This document shows, one piece after another, positions 2,092 to 60,269 of a DNA stretch of 64,000 nt. Made by a program: the position numbers and the translations under genes. This DNA is from Octopus vulgaris (taxonomy: Eukaryota): the NCBI GenBank assembly GCA_951406725.2, contig OX597840.1, positions 2,976,001-3,040,000 on the forward strand, written 5' to 3'. Every line of letters starts with the position of its first letter. Within the stretch, counting starts at the first letter, position 1. The notes below the pieces were generated by a model. It searched no databases. It was not told the DNA's origin and saw only the letters and a program-made list of their open reading frames with translations.

Positions 2092-2405
2092 AGTAGGTGA
2101 ATGAATTATCCTAGTATGGATAATTCGGTTAATCGATACCTGGGTTGCAAATTCACGTCAGAAAACGCGGTTGAAGCTACATGCCAAGGGTAGAAACCCC
2201 GTGTTCTTGTGTGGAAATTTGTGTGTTTATTTATATGTATAAATGAAAGAATGGAGTCGAACGAAGATTTTAACAAAATTCCTTTACTCACAACACATGT
2301 TTCGAAGACTGCATACTCTTAATTCCGAAGGAATAAAGGGTGCATTATCAACTGATAGAGGTTCCTTGTCTTTCCTGATGAGAAGACGGCATAATGCACC
2401 CTTTA
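1280..2405 (+). repeat. Source copy of a ~1.1-kb direct segmental duplication (second copy 10878-12001)
   Basis: Near-identical from ATATACATGTATGTGAATCTG to GCATAATGCACCCTTTA; duplicated ORFs visible in the track. Confidence 0.95.
1850..2060 (-). mobile_element. SINE-B 3' half
   Basis: CTTTTACTTGTTTCAGTC..GCGGCCATGCTGG..GCCGAACCGCTAAG matches the other SINE-B copies. Confidence 0.85.
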
Positions 2406-2494
2406 TTCCTTCGGAATTAAGAGTATGCAGTCTTCGAAACATGTGTTGAGAGTAAAGGAATTTTGTTAAAATCTTCGTTCGACTCCATTCTTTC

Positions 2495-2500
<6 letters not shown>
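2092..2500. mobile_element. Penelope-type mini-element in (TA)n with 110-bp inverted arms (2239-2348 / 2391-2500)
   Basis: Arms differ at about one position; 42-bp spacer; one arm continues into a tail to ~2092; TA tracts on both sides. Confidence 0.75.
2364..2458 (+). ncRNA. Type I hammerhead ribozyme
   Basis: Helix I CCTT-gtc-TTTC / GAGA-gta-AAGG; core CTGATGA (2375); long stem II closed by GAAGAC/GTCTTC; GAAAC-ATGT-GTT. Confidence 0.8.
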
Positions 2501-2538
<38 letters not shown>

Positions 2539-3048: not shown

Positions 3049-3496
3049 TGTATGTATAAGAGGAATATGCACCAAGGTTGATTCCTTGTACGCTACAAGA
3101 AAACGCTAAATCGCCCTTTCACGAAGAATAGGTTCACAAAAATTTTAGCAGACGCCAGAACGTATGCGAGCAAGACAAATGAATGGAGACAAAATAAAGC
3201 AATTAACTTCATACGTCGAGATTTCGCTATTAATGATTGCTAACCAAATCAGCTGTAGCCCGTCATGAAGTCGTTGCGAGATACATAATCAACGGAATCA
3301 GATACAAACCGTCGCCATGACAGAGAATATGCATATAAAGTCCCACCAATTATGCATCGAAAATATCCGTCCAAACATTTTTTACCCTCATTATTTAAAT
3401 TTTAAACATCCACGTTCTTTACCCGGTGGATTCGCTACGGAACTTTATTAGCCGCAGTGTACTCTTCGTTTTGGCGCACTAGCATGAATATATATT

Positions 3497-5205: not shown

Positions 5206-5850
5206 TAAGATAAAAACGTGGTATTCATGTGTTGCAGTCTTTGACTTTTATTTCTACTGGATCAGACATTTGCCTGGGGCTAAAAAATACTTTTAAGCAA
5301 GTATAAAAGGAAAGAAATGTAGACACGGCTAAAGATGTGTCATCGCCATCGCTGCCAGCATCAAAACCGTCATTACCGTAATTGGAATATCTATGGCTTC
5401 TGTCGTTGTTTGCGATATTGCATTGGAATAAGGAAACCATATTTATTACAAAGAAGTTACGTAACAATAAATAGGATGGCTATAATGAGGTAATTGACAT
5501 TTGACAAAATCAATTAGAATCGTCACGAAGATAAACGATAAAAAATATAATGGTATGTTTTGTTAGTGACGACTTAGCGCGGCTGAAGGTAACCTGATGG
5601 AAATTGTAACAGAATATATATTTCGGAGTTATGTTTGTCTGGGATCTGGTCTGATCTACGAGTATGTGTTGAAACTAAAACATTTCCAGTGTGGTAGATA
5701 ATTATCAGTTGGTGAAAAACCAACACTAATATATCTGTTGACTTCATTTAATATTTTTTTATTATATGGTGCCCAAATATTCATCACCTCAAATGCAAAC
5801 TGGTAACTAACGCAATTCCATTGAGACAACGGTATATTCTATTGTTATAA

Positions 5851-10877: not shown

Positions 10878-11647
10878 CATATACATGTATGTGAATCTGT
10901 TCTGAACACAATACATACATACATACATACATACATACATGCCTGCATGCATGCATACACACATACATACATACATACATGCTTGCATGCCTACATGTAT
11001 ACATACATCCACTAACGAGCCAAGAGACAGCAGCAAGGCCTCATGGATTCCCGATAATTTGTCATGAAAACCTGCAAGACGGCTCCAACAAAACCACTTC
11101 AGCGTCATTTCAAAAAGCTTGCTTGGAAGTTCTAAGCTCCTCAAAAAATGTCGAACGAGCACATAATGTATGTTATCGATAAGGGGTGGAGCGAAGACAG
11201 AGCAGGTGCAACCATTACTAGACTATTTCTTTCGTGTCATTCAGTGAGAAAATGATGTAACGAATTATTTGAAATTTTAGAAGGAAAAAAAAAACACGTT
11301 GGTTGTCAGAGGAAAATGTCATGCTAACATTCAACATGGCTTCCCTCCATGAAAAAAGATGCGTCCTTCAGAATGTCCAATGCTATAACTGGATATTGAA
11401 GCTGATCTGTAATCATTCAGTTATGGTAATTTCTGATATTTAGAAGGCTTCTCTTTTACTTGTTTCAGACTGCGGCCATGCTGGGGCACCACTTTTAGTC
11501 GAGCAAATCGACCTCAAGACTTATTTTTGTCAGCCTAGTACTCATTTTATCGGTTTCTTTTGCCGAACCGCTAAGTTACGTGGACGTAAACACACCAGCA
11601 TCGGTTGTAAGGCGATTGGGGGGGGACAAACACAGATACGCATAAAC

Positions 11648-11694
<47 letters not shown>

Positions 11695-12001
11695 GAATGA
11701 ATTATCCTAGTATGGATAATTCGGTTAATCGATACCTGGGTTGCAAATTCACGTCAGAAAACGCGGTTGAAGCTACATGTCAAGGGTAGAAACCCCGTGT
11801 TCTTGTGTGGAAATTTGTGTGTTTATTTATATGAATAAATGAAAGAATGGAGTCGAACGAAGATTTTAACAAAATTCCTTTACTCACAACACATGTTTCG
11901 AAGACTGCATACTCTTAATTCCGAAAGAATAAAGGGTGCATTATCAACTGATAGAGGTTCCTTGTCTTTCCTGATGAGAAGACGGCATAATGCACCCTTT
12001 A
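10878..12001 (+). repeat. Second copy of the segmental duplication of 1280-2405
   Basis: Near-identical; truncated inside the right hairpin arm. Confidence 0.95.
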
Positions 12002-12375
12002 TCAAGTGTAAACCATCCAAAGTGCTTCTGCGGAAGGAGTAGAGCTCGGGCCTCCGTAGCTGTGTATCAAGTATAAACCATCCAAAGTGCAATGCTACCG
12101 GTAAGAAGCTGGGATATGATCGGCCCCGGCTTAGTGCCCTATATGAGGCTGTCTGATGTTGAAAGACCTCAAGCACCTGATGAACGCTACGGAGGCGAAA
12201 ATACATCAGGTTCCCTGTGGAGGTAACTGTGCTTGTCTCAAATGTGGATCAGGAGGTGGGAGCCCTTGGTGAGGCAGTACTACAAAGGGTAGATCTAACG
12301 GGACACAACAGGCACTTAACCAACCAGGGGGAGGATGCCTGATTGTTAAAAGAGCCGAAAGATAGGAAAAGCAAA
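12001..12375 (+). mobile_element. Tandem array of HERO/Zebulon-like 3' ends (right part)
   Basis: RRRKYIRFPVEV..WIRRWEP; motifs GTCTGATGTTGAAAGACC (~12150) and GCCTGATTGTTAAAAGAGCCGAAA (~12337); 25-bp direct repeat at 12001 and 12066. Confidence 0.6.
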
Positions 12376-36860: not shown

Positions 36861-36901
<41 letters not shown>

Positions 36902-36905
<4 letters not shown>

Positions 36906-37130
36906 GGAGTAAACACATAAATGTGAAACAAGGTGGAAAAAAAAAAGAGTACTCAAATACCAGTGGTAGAGTAATATGCTTTATTTAAAGCAGCAGAAAA
37001 TTCAACAAAATCTGTTACTCTGAGTTTCTCGTTGCCGTTCATCAGACATTCTAGCAAAAACTGTCTGATGAACGGCAACGAGAAACTCAGAGTAACAGAT
37101 TTTGTTGAATTTTCTGCTGCTTAAATTAAA

Positions 37131-37133
<3 letters not shown>
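36902..37133. mobile_element. Hairpin mini-element with a canonical hammerhead on each strand
   Basis: Arms about 36975-37048 / 37062-37133; TA flanks; family of 23238-23470. Confidence 0.8.
37061..37098 (+). ncRNA. Minimal type I hammerhead ribozyme
   Basis: CTGT-CTGATGA-ACG-GCAA-CGA-GAAACTC-A-GAGTA-ACAG; GNRA-type loop 2; GUA triplet. Confidence 0.8.
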
Positions 37134-37175
<42 letters not shown>

Positions 37176-38813: not shown

Positions 38814-38888
38814 GGCTCTGATGAATCTATAATGTATTACTCAGACACTCAACTACGAGTGTTTCATACCGGAAACAGCTGATGGCCA
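38814..38888 (+). ncRNA. Decayed hammerhead-like motif
   Basis: GGCT-CTGATGA..ACACTC/GAGTGT..GAAAC-AGCT-GAT-GGCC; cleavage triplet not NUH. Confidence 0.4.
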
Positions 38889-39074
38889 ATGAAGTCCACC
38901 TTTGTCATCTTTCTTATTACCACTCTGTATTCAGCAGACACTTAGTTCTGAAACATACGTATATTGACTTCTACACCAGGTTATTAATCTTGCAACGCCT
39001 AAGTTAGATTTTTGTGTGTTTGTGTGAATGAGAATTGTGTGTGTACGTGTAATATGTGTTTATACATATGTGCT

Positions 39075-50842: not shown

Positions 50843-51050
50843 TACGAGGGGTTACTGAAATGTTCCTGTCTTTAATGGTATTGTGAAACGCCTGGTTAGA
50901 GGCCAAACCTTCCGTGTTCTTTTACAGGGGTTAGAAAAACTGAAGGGCTGCTGCAATAAGTGAGTACATCTCAGAGCGTAATATGGTGAATAAAATCGTA
51001 CTTACCTGATCCTCCTATATATCTTTTTTACCCGGAGTCAGAAATAATTC
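50843..51050. mobile_element. Mariner-type MITE, inverted homolog of 19355-19577
   Basis: TACGAGGGGTTACTGAAATGTTC start; TTCTTTTACAGGG.TTAGAAAAA.TGAAGG shared. Confidence 0.6.
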
Positions 51051-51383
51051 AAAGCCGACATCTTTGAAAGCGTAACTTAAGAATTTTCTAAATTTCCCTA
51101 ATGTGACGATGCTGGTATTATTCGCTGAGATAGTCAGAAATCTCGTGGGCTTGTTAGTATGCTAAATTTCCACAGTATTTTCGCATAGTCATTTTTCGAA
51201 GACAAGTGAACTACATCAGTGATAGATATGCTGAAAACACTACACAATTCCTTCAAAACAGATAACAAAATGTCGCTTGTGTGGAACATTTTCGGAAATA
51301 ATATATCATATTCTAGCTTCGATAAACCACCTAATGGACACAAAAGCTTGCTCTACCTAGAACGCTTATAACAAAATTTGTCT
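51048..51383. repeat. 336-bp repeat with an inverted copy at 59234-59569
   Basis: Co-linear reverse complement, no indels seen; ORFs 51134-51343 and 59274-59483 nearly identical. Confidence 0.92.
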
Positions 51384-52272: not shown

Positions 52273-52325
52273 CACTGCTGACGAGTCCCAATTACTGGAC
52301 GAAACCGCGGTGCTGTGTTCTAGCT
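52273..52325 (+). ncRNA. Schistosoma-like type I hammerhead, probably inactivated (GUG triplet)
   Basis: CACTG-CTGACGA-GTCC-CAATTACT-GGAC-GAAAC-CGCG-GTG-CTGTG-TTCTA. Confidence 0.7.
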
Positions 52326-52941: not shown

Positions 52942-53090
52942 CATATATACGACGGGCTTCTTTCAGTTTCCGGGTACCAAATCTACTCACAAGGCTTTGG
53001 TCAACTCGAGGCTATAGTAGGAGACACTTGCCCAAGGTGCCACGCAGTGGGACTGAACCCGGAACCATGTGGTTGGTAAGCAAGCTACAA
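52686..53090 (-). mobile_element. SINE-B
   Basis: Consensus match. Confidence 0.88.
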
Positions 53091-53102
53091 ACATATACAC
53101 AC

Positions 53103-53143
<41 letters not shown>

Positions 53144-53342
53144 ACAAAATTAGAGAATGGAGAAACATACTTAAATCAATAAAACATCAACTATCCGATG
53201 ATACTCAATCCATACTTTAATACACCATTACATAGGAGTAAAGGCAATATATAAAATGAAATGAGATATACAGTAATAGTAAAAGTAAAAAAAGATAAAG
53301 AGATATAAGTAAAAAATTACAAATACAATATGCAAATAAATC

Positions 53343-53458
53343 AAAACTGACAGCTGTTTCGGCAGTGAGGACAGTCATACCTCATTTAACCTATAAGCCA
53401 TAAAGGCAGGTATAAATGAGGCATTAACAAAGATGCCCCACGGCCTCTTCAGAGAATT
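53343..53458 (-). ncRNA. Type I hammerhead in the 3' pseudo-LTR (sense to the ORF)
   Basis: Reverse complement of 56651-56766. Confidence 0.8.
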
Positions 53459-53795
53459 AAATTAAATTTGTTATAATAGTGAAAAATATTATATAATCAT
53501 ATACATATAAATATAAAAATATAAAAAAGTAAAATATAAAAACTTATACATCATAATGCTACACTTGTATAATATAATACATATTTGTACAAAAAGGAAG
53601 GTAACCAGAACAAAATAAAACAAAATATATAACAGTGTATATATAATATTAATAAGTACCGATATCATACATATTTAGCTAATAGTTTTTTTTATAAAAA
53701 AAAGGGCTAACACATATGGAGATGAAAAATAATAATAATTAAATCCGTGGTACAGTTCATAAAATTCTAAAGCTATAAAAGTTAATAAAAATTAC

Positions 53796-53832
<37 letters not shown>

Positions 53833-55561
53833 GTAATAATAATAAAAAATAATAAAAATAGATACAGTTAAGTTATCACCAAGTCCATCCTTCCAAGATC
53901 GAAATAACTATGAGTTAAGAAATGCTGACCACTAGGTAAAGAAAATTTAGATTAATTCGATTGGCTATTGGTTTGAAATTTAAATCACAAAAGAAAATTA
54001 TACGGTTGGTTAGTCAGGGAACGCCAATATTCACACACGCATCTACAGATCAATCGCACATACACACATAGTTATATGTATATACATACACTTGTACATA
54101 TACATAATCATAAGCAACAACTAACACTTAGATAAACAAATAGGGAAGCAACCATGCTAACACTAAGTCCTTCAAAATTATAACTGAGCCTCAATAACAA
54201 AAAAAGAACCATCCATGCATTCTATAAAATATTTAATTAAGATATAAATGTATTTTTAAATATCAGTATGTTACTAATTCAGATAATTATTTCATGGGTA
54301 ACTTAAAATTTATAACACCGGTTTGTTGCAGAGTAAACATACGGTTGTTAGGTTTATCGTAAGTTTGTTATGATTTAAAGTACGCTAAATTATAAAATAT
54401 AAAATATAAAATATATTAATTTAGATATTATAAATAAGTCACTTATTAACTTAATAAATATAGTGCCAAAATATACCAGTTTAGGCAATAAAAAATAGAG
54501 GGGGAAGTATTAATGTAAACGCTTATGAGAACATCACAGAAATTTTAAATAAATTTTATATTATAAAGACTTAAGATGAAAAGAGATAAAATAAATAAAA
54601 AGGAATAAATACGAAGGAATAAATACGGTTATACACATAATTATAAGTACAAACTAGTATATATGTATTCATATATTATTAAAATTAAATAAAAATAAAT
54701 GATAGATATGTATGTATAAAACTACACCAGTATAAGTAAATAAGTAAAGAATAAATAGGTAACAAATTAAATGACTTGATATGTATGTAAACATCCACAC
54801 TTAAATAGGCAAATAAATAAATAAATAGAAGACTAGATGCAAATATTGATAATATTACAATAAAATGGGAAATAAATAAAAATAAATAAAGTGAATATAT
54901 ATATTTTATATTGTTGAAAGTAAATATGTATGGAAGGATAGTTTAAAGTACAGATCCAGAGGACTATAGATATAAACTAAATATATGAGGCTGGTAACAA
55001 TTATAAAGCAAAATGCATGTAAATGAGAAAATGAAAAAAATGAAAAAGGTTTATCAGTGAATAACATAAGATACAAATTAAGGTGAGTACAAAAAGACCA
55101 AATATATAATAAAAACCTTCCAAATCAGCACATACAAAAAACCCATAATCTCAACCTAAACCCACCAAACTCACAAAAGGCTCTCATATATTACATATTA
55201 TACAATATCATTACATTATCCAGAGCTAGGTATCTAACCAAGATATACATATATACTTTGCAATATACTATGCAATATTGGAAAACTTCAAAAATCACAC
55301 ATTACAAGGCAAATACCAAAATGAATATGTTATTTTATGTCATATTGCATTTCTCTTAAAAAAAACAAACAAAAACCCACATACAAAAACCAAGAAACCA
55401 ATAATACTAGACACATCCAATTAGTTATTATACAAATGTAGCTATAAAAATTATAAAATTATGAAATTTATAAATTGTATACTTTAGAATTATAGAAGAC
55501 CACAGGTATATTTAGTTAAAGAAGGGAATTAAAAAATTGATAATAGTGGAAGTGCTAAGTT

Positions 55562-56101
55562 CTATTTGAATCTAGAAAAGGTGAACGGTAGCCTATGAAT
55601 ACAAAAGAAGCTTTTCTCATTAATGTTATTAATAATTTGCCGACCCGCTTTAATAATGAAGAAAATTTCATTAATACATAGAGAGCATTTTTTATTTTTT
55701 CCATTATACACAGGTGCTGAAGTTAGTATTTTCCAGTTTAATCTAAAATCTAAGTTCTTACTTTTAAGTTCCCAAATATATGCACTTAGCCCTGTAGAGT
55801 ACATTCTATTTTTATTCCTAAAAGTATATCTATGATAATTCCATCTTTGTTTTATGCTATTCATAGTTGCCCCGATATACACTCTACTACTCAATTGTGT
55901 ATCTACAGTGCATTGGTAAACTACCTCCTTCCTGAGGCATTGATTACCAAATACACATTTATTTTTATTTCTGCAATTACAAAGATTAACAGAATGAGGA
56001 AATCTAAGATTGGACACCACCCCTATACTACTATTCACATTATAAGTGTTACAATTGTTATCATCATCCAAACCCAAAATCAACGAATGAGTTAATTCCA
56101 C
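55562..56101 (-). CDS. Penelope-type GIY-YIG endonuclease domain (C-terminal part of a broken ORF)
   Basis: CNCRNKNKC..C..EVVYQC..RVYIGAT..IKQRWNYH..F..STGLSAYIWELK..WKIL..CSLCINE..CIH. Confidence 0.9.
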   Translation of the reverse strand: MELTHSLILGLDDDNNCNTYNVNSSIGVVSNLRFPHSVNLCNCRNKNKCVFGNQCLRKEVVYQCTVDTQLSSRVYIGATMNSIKQRWNYHRYTFRNKNRMYSTGLSAYIWELKSKNLDFRLNWKILTSAPVYNGKNKKCSLCINEIFFIIKAGRQIINNINEKSFFCIHRLPFTFSRFK

Positions 56102-56163
56102 ATTATCGGCTATATTCCTATCACTAGTACTAGTATTGGTAGTAGTGGTATGATCTATTACAT

Positions 56164-56541
56164 TTATATTATCTCTGACAGGTATGGTGCACTCATTATT
56201 AGTAAGGAGGTTGCTCCCATTTGTTCCAAGAAAATTTCTATTCCTATTATTAATGAAGAGGGCAAGTTTTCCTGGTCTAAATTCAATTTTCTATCCTTAT
56301 AGAAGTGATCCAGTTTCTTGTTATTAAAAGAGGAGATGATGGTGGCTAGATTATGAGTAATGCTATATCCCACTCTAACAGTACCGTTGTTAATTAAAGG
56401 ACTAAATTTATTCCTATCCTTACCAAAATGCCTAAAAATAATATTATGCAAAGCTCTCACTATGTTTGTTTTAATCTGCATTGCATACGGGATAATCAAC
56501 CAAAGAGTATCCTTATCAGAATTAGGATTGCCTATAGAATT
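56164..56541 (-). pseudogene. Penelope RT thumb/linker remnant, out of frame with the GIY-YIG part
   Basis: WLIIPYAMQIKTNIVRAL..IIFRHF..INNGTVRVGYS..NLATIISSFN matches the PY..KTNI..KHF..N..TVKVSYS..N..II..HN pattern. Confidence 0.8.
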
Positions 56542-56650
56542 CAAGTGTAGCATTATGATGTATAAGTTTTTATATTTTACTTTTTTATATTTTTATATTT
56601 ATATGTATATGATTATATAATATTTTTCACTATTATAACAAATTTAATTT

Positions 56651-56766
56651 AATTCTCTGAAGAGGCCGTGGGGCATCTTTGTTAATGCCTCATTTATACC
56701 TGCCTTTATGGCTTATAGGTTAAATGAGGTATGACTGTCCTCACTGCCGAAACAGCTGTCAGTTTT
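56651..56766 (+). ncRNA. Type I hammerhead with ~85-nt extended stem II
   Basis: CTGAAGA (56657); GGC.GTGGGG/CCTCAC.GCC and TGCCTCATTTA/TAAATGAGGTA pairings; GAAAC-AGCT-GTC (56749-56760); helix I weak. Confidence 0.8.
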
Positions 56767-57133
56767 GATTTATTTGCATATTGTATTTGTAATTTTTTAC
56801 TTATATCTCTTTATCTTTTTACTTTTACTATTACTGTATATCTCATTTCATTTTATATATTGCCTTTACTCCTATGTAATGGTGTATTAAAGTATGGATT
56901 GAGTATCATCGGATAGTTGATGTTTTATTGATTTAAGTATGTTTCTCCATTCTCTAATTTTGTAGTATTAATTTACGGTAATATTATTACCCTTACCCAT
57001 TTAATACAATAGATGAACTGATTGCTTGACAATTTCTAACATCTATGTATTAATTTTTGTTGGGTACCTATCTAGCAGTATATTGGATATATATTATCCC
57101 ATGGTGGGTTGAATTTTCAACCCCTATCTCATT

Positions 57134-57179
<46 letters not shown>

Positions 57180-57186
57180 CATACAT

Positions 57187-57352
57187 ACGACGGGCTTCTT
57201 TCACTTTCCGTCTACAAAATCCAATCACAAGCCTTTGGTCGGCCCGAGGGTATAGTAGAAGCCTCTTGCCCAAGGTGCCAAGCAGTGGGACTCAACCCGG
57301 AACCATGTGGTTGGTAAGAAAGCTACTTACCACACAGCCACTCCTGCACCTA
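57187..57352 (-). mobile_element. SINE-B 5' half
   Basis: Consensus match. Confidence 0.85.
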
Positions 57353-59233: not shown

Positions 59234-59569
59234 AGACAAATTGTGTTATAAGCGTTCTAGGTAGAGCAAGCTTTTGTGTCCATTAGGTTGTTTATCGAAG
59301 TTAGAATATGATGTATTATTTCAGAAAATGTTCCACACAAGCGACATTTTGTTATCTGTTTTGCAGGAATTGTGTAGTGTTTTCAGTATATCTATCACTG
59401 ATGTAGTTCACTTGTCTCAGAAAAATGACAATGCGAAAATACTGTGGAAATTTAGCATACTAACAAGACCACGAGATTTCTGACTATCTCAGCGAATAAT
59501 ACCAACATCGTCACATTAGGGAAATTTAGAAAATTCTTAAGTTACGCTTTCAAAGATGTCGGCTTTGAA
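59234..59569. repeat. Inverted copy of 51048-51383
   Basis: Reverse-complement match. Confidence 0.92.
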
Positions 59570-60269
59570 GTAAACTTCTCATACGTTACATTATTGCTAA
59601 ACAGCGATAAGCAACAGCTATATAGGAAACTGAAGGAAGGCTCGTATACATCAACGCAAGCGAAATAATCTCTACAAAACCAAAACTGATATACCAAAAG
59701 CACACATTATATGGCAATGGCTTAATATAAATTTAAGTATCACTACTTCAATCACGTCTCTTCTTTCTGAAATACCGAGAAATGGAATGTTATAAACTAT
59801 TAAATTATTTTGCAAATTGAAACACAGCAAAAGTAAATTCGACATCCTCTGATATATAGTTGAAAGATAAAAGCCGCACATAAATGAAATAAGAATCGGC
59901 AGATTATGCACTTCTGAAACGAGTTTCATACTAACGAAACTTAAAGAAATACGATGTCTACTTAAACGTTGGATCCGAGATATTCAACAAATACTGACAA
60001 CCCAGAAAGTTTCGTTTATCACAGTGGGAAATAAAATTAACTAAATATATTATACATTAACTAAATATACTATACTGAGATTCCTATTGAAAATACCCAT
60101 ACACATGTACATCGACGATTTTCTGGATACTGACGGTGCAATCACAGTTCGACTGTAGGTATAATGGCAAATGAATACCTGAATATCTCACAAGACGGTA
60201 GAATATTTCGTTGATTGGCGATGGGTAGCCTTGTATTTTATATGTAATCATCTGAATATCTACATGTTG

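What the first reader, a model, noticed from the sequence alone, without database searches (positions are those of the whole stretch)
53140..57140. Apparently young Penelope insertion: identical inverted arms, extended stem II hammerhead, very long 3' region
The ~427-bp arms show no difference by eye, and the GIY-YIG domain with Cys-rich linker is open for 179 aa. The ORF is cut in the RT thumb exactly where the inverted arm starts (56542), and about 2 kb of non-coding DNA separates the stop codon from the ribozyme. The hammerhead has an unusually long (~85 nt) stem II. This is the best candidate for the type of autonomous partner driving the mini-elements.
Basis: partly seen in the sequence, partly recalled or inferred. 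Interest (0 to 1): 0.7.

Follow-up and report, generated by a model that had tools for sequence, protein, structure and literature searches.

The report
Young Hydra-clade Penelope insertion, oversized ribozyme
This is a broken, recently inserted copy of a high-copy jumping gene in what is likely an octopus genome; its layout is the textbook one for Penelope-like elements, but the family carries an unusually long predicted self-cutting RNA and an unusually long end extension.

Summary
Real, and mostly ordinary. Positions 53142-57138 are two 5'-truncated copies of one Penelope-like element, joined head to head in a (TA)n tract. The arms differ only by a 2-nt gap. Protein motifs fit the Hydra clade. 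The family is young (median 0.32% substitutions to 20 best-matching copies) and abundant (1,420 ribozyme-pattern matches, 0 in the control). This copy is dead: it has no RT core and is one base short between thumb and endonuclease. Full-length 5,586-nt units exist elsewhere. Unusual sizes: an 85-nt stem II with compensatory changes, a 2.4-kb 3' region, two Asn-rich inserts and a 169-nt tail (30-40 nt is usual). All 21 inverted pairs examined have the tail on exactly one side. An apparent family-wide RT/endonuclease frameshift is probably an assembly homopolymer error: two of three informative short-read data sets and all 30 interrupted-run copies are in frame. The partner claim is not supported: the window's mini-elements share no DNA with this family and have endonuclease-coding relatives of their own. 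Sequence look-ups found no earlier scan note on this family.

The parts
53100..53141 (.). (TA)n-rich target tract, left side
   Evidence: 96 of 97 distinct free ends of the family are followed by (TA)5 within 40 nt
53142..53567 (-). left arm: tail-less 3' end of the long copy
   Evidence: same end point in 18 of 30 ribozyme-selected loci
53349..53452 (-). type I hammerhead motif of the long copy (identical to the right one)
53568..55561 (-). rest of the 2,420-nt T-rich 3' non-coding region; no ATG-started ORF over 59 aa and no window folding better than shuffles except the ribozyme
55562..55981 (-). CxCx5C linker and GIY-YIG endonuclease; Y, G, R, H, E, N, CxxC and CxH all present; stop at 55562-55564
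   Evidence: model pLDDT 92, best fold matches are GIY-YIG nucleases at weak E-values
55982..56290 (-). Asn-rich linker insert, in frame with the endonuclease
56260..56262 (-). one-base shortfall (C3; C4 in 33 of 39 copies) that puts thumb and endonuclease in different frames; real or an assembly error, undecided
56263..56541 (-). C-terminal part of the RT thumb region, 5'-truncated at 56541
56542..56968 (+). right arm: short 5'-truncated copy in inverted orientation
56657..56760 (+). type I hammerhead motif: 85-nt stem II region (56664-56748), self-complementary stem III, 2-bp stem I, predicted cut after 56760
56969..57138 (+). 169-170-nt tail = first bases of the next unit (5' leader); runs on into the ORF in tandem copies
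57139..57172 (.). (TA)n target tract, right side

Best explanation
The stretch is a dead, recent insertion of a Hydra-clade Penelope-like retrotransposon, two 5'-truncated copies joined head to head in a (TA)n tract, likely made in one event by the protein of an intact copy elsewhere. Shown: the architecture, the 5,586-nt unit, the target, two fixed 3' ends 169 nt apart, and the one-tail-per-insertion rule. Inferred, by analogy with the anole element studied in vitro (PMC11167929): a read-through RNA from a tandem copy is bound by the RT-endonuclease protein; both strands of the (TA)n target are nicked; each 3'-OH primes reverse transcription at one of two internal start sites, one at the unit boundary and one 169 nt into the next unit; both cDNAs stop early (after 3.4 kb and 0.6 kb here) and are joined at 56541/56542. 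The family likely encodes one ORF of about 947 codons. The hammerhead is predicted to cut only as a dimer or with protein help; its long stem II probably has a maintained structural role.
For: Hydra motifs DKT, RWR, CxCx5C, CxxC and CxH, and no CCHH (against PMC8557442 section 11). 96 of 97 free ends at (TA)n; 21 of 21 inverted pairs have one tailed and one tail-less end (15 of the 21 were not selected for a tail). In 5 of 20 ten-kb loci the tail runs on into the ORF; 6 of 20 hold the whole coding region. Youth: 40 best hits 98-100% identical; median 0.32% substitutions to 20 long copies. Stem II: 95% of cells paired, 5 of 34 pairs changed on both sides in 26 variants, slid controls 29-43% paired. 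Single ORF: in frame in contigs of X1 (43.2 of 43.2 depth) and X15 (986+250 of 1236), in an Octopus sinensis protein, in a sister family and in 30 of 30 listed assembly copies whose C-run is interrupted.
Against: No assembly copy that I examined is in one frame from ATG to stop (0 of 6 complete coding regions). Run X18 shows the extra C in only 5.6 of 11,018 depth; this is unexplained and may be clipping of short contigs. Clade placement rests on motifs, not on a tree with named references. Pfam gave no RT or GIY-YIG hit, the PDB profile hit to a retron RT is weak (E 0.029), and Foldseek's best is E 0.09. The age estimate uses best hits, so it is biased young. The covariation set is related by descent and includes 13 variants I picked for being different. 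Ribozyme cleavage is untested, and the priming steps come from another clade.
Confidence: 0.85

Rival explanations
1. The RT/endonuclease offset is real: the youngest subfamily has RT and thumb-endonuclease in frames offset by -1 at a G4-AA-C5 run and uses programmed slippage, or is a crippled master moved in trans.
For: In the assembly 48 of 70 listed pure-run copies have C5 and only 12 of 70 are in frame (100 of 118 matches listed, counted by hand); run X18 is almost all without the extra C; the break falls at a domain boundary.
Against: X1 (99.8% identical to L076) and X15 are in frame. Run lengths 4, 5 and 6 are mixed, even between the two halves of one inverted insertion. A control C6 run in the conserved NHPP motif is also one short in 32 of 66 assembly copies, with no such gap listed in the short-read contigs (contigs can drop variants). 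Interrupted-run copies never vary (30 of 30).
Confidence: 0.08
2. This family is the autonomous partner that moves the window's ribozyme mini-elements.
For: Same head-to-head layout and (TA)n target as the mini-elements; the family has full-length copies.
Against: No DNA similarity. Each mini family has longer copies with its own endonuclease ORF: L205 and L211 for the 37-kb element; L223, L231, L233 and L235 for the 2.3-kb element. PMC3846280 (passages read) reports no cross-mobilisation between co-resident types in a rotifer.
Confidence: 0.07
3. The arms are terminal inverted repeats of a DNA-transposon-like or gene-converted structure, not two truncated retro-copies.
For: The arms are nearly identical.
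Against: Arm length varies from under 100 nt to about 3 kb between loci while the outer ends are fixed, which is 5' truncation; direct tandems also occur.
Confidence: 0.02

Closest known systems
Hydra clade of C-terminal EN+ Penelope-like elements (Craig et al. 2021, PMC8557442; passages, sections 6 and 11, supplement parts 1-2 and search hits read)
   Same: Domain order, DKT, RW(K/R), CxCx5C, CxxC and CxH motifs, no CCHH, type I hammerhead in the 3' region, (TA)n target, inverted 5'-truncated copy, tail at one end.
   Different: Unit 5,586 nt against 2.1-2.7 kb for the families marked complete; tail 169 nt against 30-40; stem II region 85 nt against about 25 nt at most in the Hydra rows of their File S2; two Asn-rich inserts. 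By eye it is not their Hydra-1_Obim (different N-terminus and ribozyme).
Poseidon_Ac of Anolis carolinensis (Frangieh et al. 2024, PMC11167929; parts 1-2 of 4 read)
   Same: Two fixed 3' ends that delimit a tail; AT-rich target; both strands extended.
   Different: Other clade. There the start sites lie 111-118 nt inside the ORF and the ribozyme overlaps the start codon. Here both ends lie in the 5' leader, 169 nt apart, and the ATG is about 520 nt past the predicted cut.
Adineta vaga Penelope families (Arkhipova et al. 2013, PMC3846280; passages and section 7 read)
   Same: In-frame Asn-rich inserts between RT, thumb and endonuclease; inverted pLTRs; a 0.9-1.5-kb spacer before the 3' pLTR in Pen1.
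   Different: There the spacers differ between copies (captured DNA). Here the 2.4-kb region is fixed in the family, and its length is kept in a sister family at 69% DNA identity.
Minimal and palindromic-helix-III hammerheads of metazoan PLEs (Cervera and de la Pena 2014, PMC4209133; passages read)
   Same: Type I core, short stem I, self-complementary helix III suited to dimers.
   Different: Helix II there is 4-8 bp; here about 30 bp in three or four stacked helices.

Membership tests
EN+ Penelope-like element | RT followed by a GIY-YIG endonuclease | tested here: met
   YRDD and other RT motifs in full-length copies; endonuclease residues conserved in 73 relatives; fold matches to T4 EndoII, I-TevI and UvrC, all weak
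EN+ Penelope-like element | single ORF | tested here: inconclusive
   in frame in X1, X15, P0004, the sister family and 30 of 30 interrupted-run copies; out of frame in most pure-run assembly copies and in X18
EN+ Penelope-like element | partial tandems (pLTR), inverted 5'-truncated copy, tail at one end | tested here: met
Hydra clade | DKT in place of DKG; RWK motif | tested here: met
   HSDKTNN and IRWRIF (R for K) in P0001; RW[KR] in 59 of 73 relatives
Hydra clade | CxCx5C linker, CxxC and CxH around E and N, no CCHH in the endonuclease | tested here: met
   CNCRNKNKC, CSLC, CIH; only one unconserved Cys between the two core tyrosines
Hydra clade | canonical hammerhead motif and (TA)n target | tested here: met
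   cleavage itself not tested
Hydra clade | generally shorter than 3 kb (typical, not diagnostic) | tested here: not met
   unit 5,586 nt
Hydra clade | no insertion-in-fingers domain | not tested
   no alignment to Naiad or telomerase RTs was made
Hydra clade | groups with named Hydra RTs in a phylogeny | not testable with these tools
   named references were not available to the tree tools; the quick tree of 28 mostly unnamed relatives only groups it with two Octopus proteins
Naiad clade | N-terminal endonuclease, no canonical hammerhead | tested here: not met
   endonuclease is C-terminal and a canonical core is present

The most novel reading that the evidence does not exclude
This octopus lineage has turned the hammerhead's stem II into an 85-100-nt structured module that is kept by compensatory change and does a job of its own (protein docking or switching cleavage on). 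Its dimeric enzyme assigns two start sites 169 nt apart strictly one to each target strand, which would make it the clearest natural record of how Penelope inverted insertions are built.
Probability: 0.3. Interest if true: 0.5.

Novelty: new member of a known kind. Interest (0 to 1): 0.3.

Why it matters
The copy itself is a dead insertion of a known kind. The family is of some use: it is a young, abundant Hydra-clade element with complete coding regions, in a clade for which I found no biochemical study. Its long tail separates the two presumed start sites widely enough to test the two-strand priming model. Its ribozyme is missed by Rfam and is far longer than the published Hydra motifs. The work also shows that C6 runs are probably under-called in young repeats of this assembly, which would hide intact elements from ORF-based annotation.

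Tried and rejected
Intron as the fix for the RT/endonuclease offset: a phase-compatible donor and acceptor exist, but the region is open for about 125 codons, X1's contig crosses it unspliced and no joint was listed. No RNA holder is on record and X1 and X2 are only guessed to be RNA, so expression was not assessed. Rfam at both thresholds: no hammerhead. Pfam: no relevant family for 8 proteins. Hidden ORF or structured RNA in the 3' region: none beyond the ribozyme (150-nt windows, 25 shuffles each). Microhomology at the inversion junction: none seen. Target-site duplication: cannot be read in (TA)n. The careful tree did not finish; only the quick tree was seen. Presence or absence of this insertion among individuals was not tested: the read-laying runs were used on the coding region. 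Literature: six searches gave no paper on this family or on an 85-nt stem II in a PLE. PMC13282606 (passages) counts 31 recently active Penelope-like families in Octopus vulgaris, and its supplement, which I did not open, may hold this family. PMC3088659 (passages) and the retrozyme preprint 10.64898/2026.07.22.740005 (part 1 of 5) added nothing specific.

Full report
Observation. The inverted arms are real: 53142-53567 and 56542-56965 differ by one 2-nt gap and no substitution. Each holds a type I hammerhead motif with 85 nt between the two core strands that folds as a long stem (z -4.4) and that Rfam misses. On the minus strand an endonuclease frame is open for 242 codons and ends at 55562-55564; a thumb fragment lies upstream in another frame and is cut at 56541. 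The stop is 2,109 nt from the ribozyme and 2,420 nt from the end of the arm.

What it is. Searching the own genome with the right arm plus the 169 nt after it gave 2,412 first-look candidates; the 40 scored were 98-100% identical over the whole query. So 56969-57138 belongs to the element. A ribozyme pattern has 1,420 matches against 0 for the reversed control (this includes older subfamilies and a sister family, and inverted pairs count twice). In 20 ten-kb loci chosen on the thumb region, 6 hold the whole coding region and 5 show the tail running on into the leader and ORF. The unit is 5,586 nt: tail 1-169, ATG at 312, stop at 3154, ribozyme at 5263. The window therefore holds two 5'-truncated copies, 3.4 kb and 0.6 kb, facing away from each other. 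Outer ends are fixed and inner junctions vary between loci. Of 97 distinct free ends, 96 abut (TA)n; 54 are tail-less and 43 tailed. All 21 inverted pairs have one of each (one tail was scored partial by my motif test but is complete at 96%; 6 pairs came from a tail-selected search). The window copy differs from the 20 long copies by a median 0.32% substitutions (best hits, so biased low).

Protein and clade. The nearest named protein is labelled Octopus sinensis (96% identity over half the query), so the genome is likely an Octopus species. Relatives are mostly 680-800-aa RT-endonuclease proteins at 31-45% identity. The family has DKT, RWR, CxCx5C, CxxC and CxH and lacks CCHH, the diagnostic set for the Hydra clade in PMC8557442 section 11. 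The catalytic Y, G, R, H, E and N positions are retained. A confident model (pLDDT 92) matches GIY-YIG nucleases best, though only at E 0.09 or worse. Two inserts of 129 and 108 aa (25% and 20% Asn) lengthen the protein, as described for rotifer elements.

The apparent split ORF. Nearly all long copies in the assembly have RT (534 codons stop to stop) and thumb-endonuclease (444) offset by one base at a C-run. I tested whether this is biology. Short-read contigs of X1 and X15 are in frame, X2 has a clipped in-frame variant, and X18 is nearly all without the extra base. An O. sinensis protein and a sister family read through. Of the 100 listed of 118 genome matches, 30 have an interrupted run and all are in frame; the other 70 scatter as 48 C5, 11 C6, 10 C4 and 1 other, and differ even between halves of one insertion (counted by hand). 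A second C6 run in a conserved motif is one short in 32 of 66 copies. An assembly under-call explains this best (about 90%); X18 remains unexplained. The window copy's own one-base shortfall at 56260-56262 is at a site where 4 of 39 copies lose a base and may have the same cause. The copy is dead either way, for lack of the RT core.

Ribozyme. In 26 distinct variants (13 taken in genome order, 13 picked for being different) 95% of cells pair, 5 of 34 pairs change on both sides, and slid controls pair at 29-43%; relatedness inflates such counts. A sister family at 69% DNA identity keeps a stem II region of about 100 nt with a different tip, and a 3' region of about 2.2 kb whose sequence has mostly diverged. 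Stem III is self-complementary and stem I is 2 bp, the layout that PMC4209133 links to dimer-dependent, weak cleavage. The Hydra rows of the published table have stem II regions of about 25 nt at most. Another family in this window has about 55 nt, so long stems recur in this genome.

Mini-elements. The element matches nothing else in the window. The short head-to-head ribozyme elements at about 2.2-2.5 kb and 36.9-37.15 kb have 1,616 and 86 first-look candidates. Among the 25 loci fetched for each, some continue upstream into an endonuclease ORF 33-37% identical to this family's. They are truncated ends of other families. Earlier scan notes mention separate retrozyme-like repeats in this genome (unchecked); sequence look-ups found no note on this family.

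Mechanism. Shown: layout, target, two fixed ends, one tail per insertion. Inferred from PMC11167929: nicking of both target strands, priming at two internal RNA sites, early termination and joining. PMC8557442 already notes that the tail is often at one end only; the length here and the 21 of 21 rule are the additions. The role of the ribozyme and of the long 3' region is untested.

Verdict. A new, young member of a known clade with several oversized parts. Interest 0.3.

Noticed in passing
window 2228-2511, with a 98% duplicate of 2052-2406 at 11647-12002: Head-to-head 3' ends of another PLE family, with a hammerhead whose stem II region is about 55 nt; longer copies carry an endonuclease ORF about 500 nt upstream.
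   Followed up: partly
window 36900-37145: Head-to-head pair of minimal hammerheads of a third family in (TA)n; longer copies (L205, L211) carry RT and endonuclease coding sequence.
   Followed up: partly
window 52278-52320 and 38818-38890: Two more hammerhead-like cores on the + strand, one minimal and one with a long, poorly folding middle.
   Followed up: no
window 52950-53090 and 57187-57345: Copies of a common short interspersed repeat flank the insertion on both sides, same orientation (seen by eye).
   Followed up: no
window 51045-51383 and 59234-59572: A 339-nt inverted repeat, 96% complementary, brackets the element 7.85 kb apart.
   Followed up: no
L186:600-5100 (-): Sister family, 69% DNA and 78% endonuclease identity, with a stem II region of about 100 nt, a 3' region of about 2.2 kb and (AAT)n expansions in its Asn-rich insert.
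   Followed up: partly
L069:1-3800: Another Hydra-type family in an inverted pair, with two frames overlapping at the same thumb position.
   Followed up: no
G000: C6 runs in young repeat copies are one base short in half or more of the assembly copies, probably a sequencing under-call that hides intact ORFs.
   Followed up: partly
P0004, P0010: Public databases name cephalopod members of this lineage 'GATA zinc finger domain-containing protein 14-like', probably because of the Asn-rich inserts.
   Followed up: no
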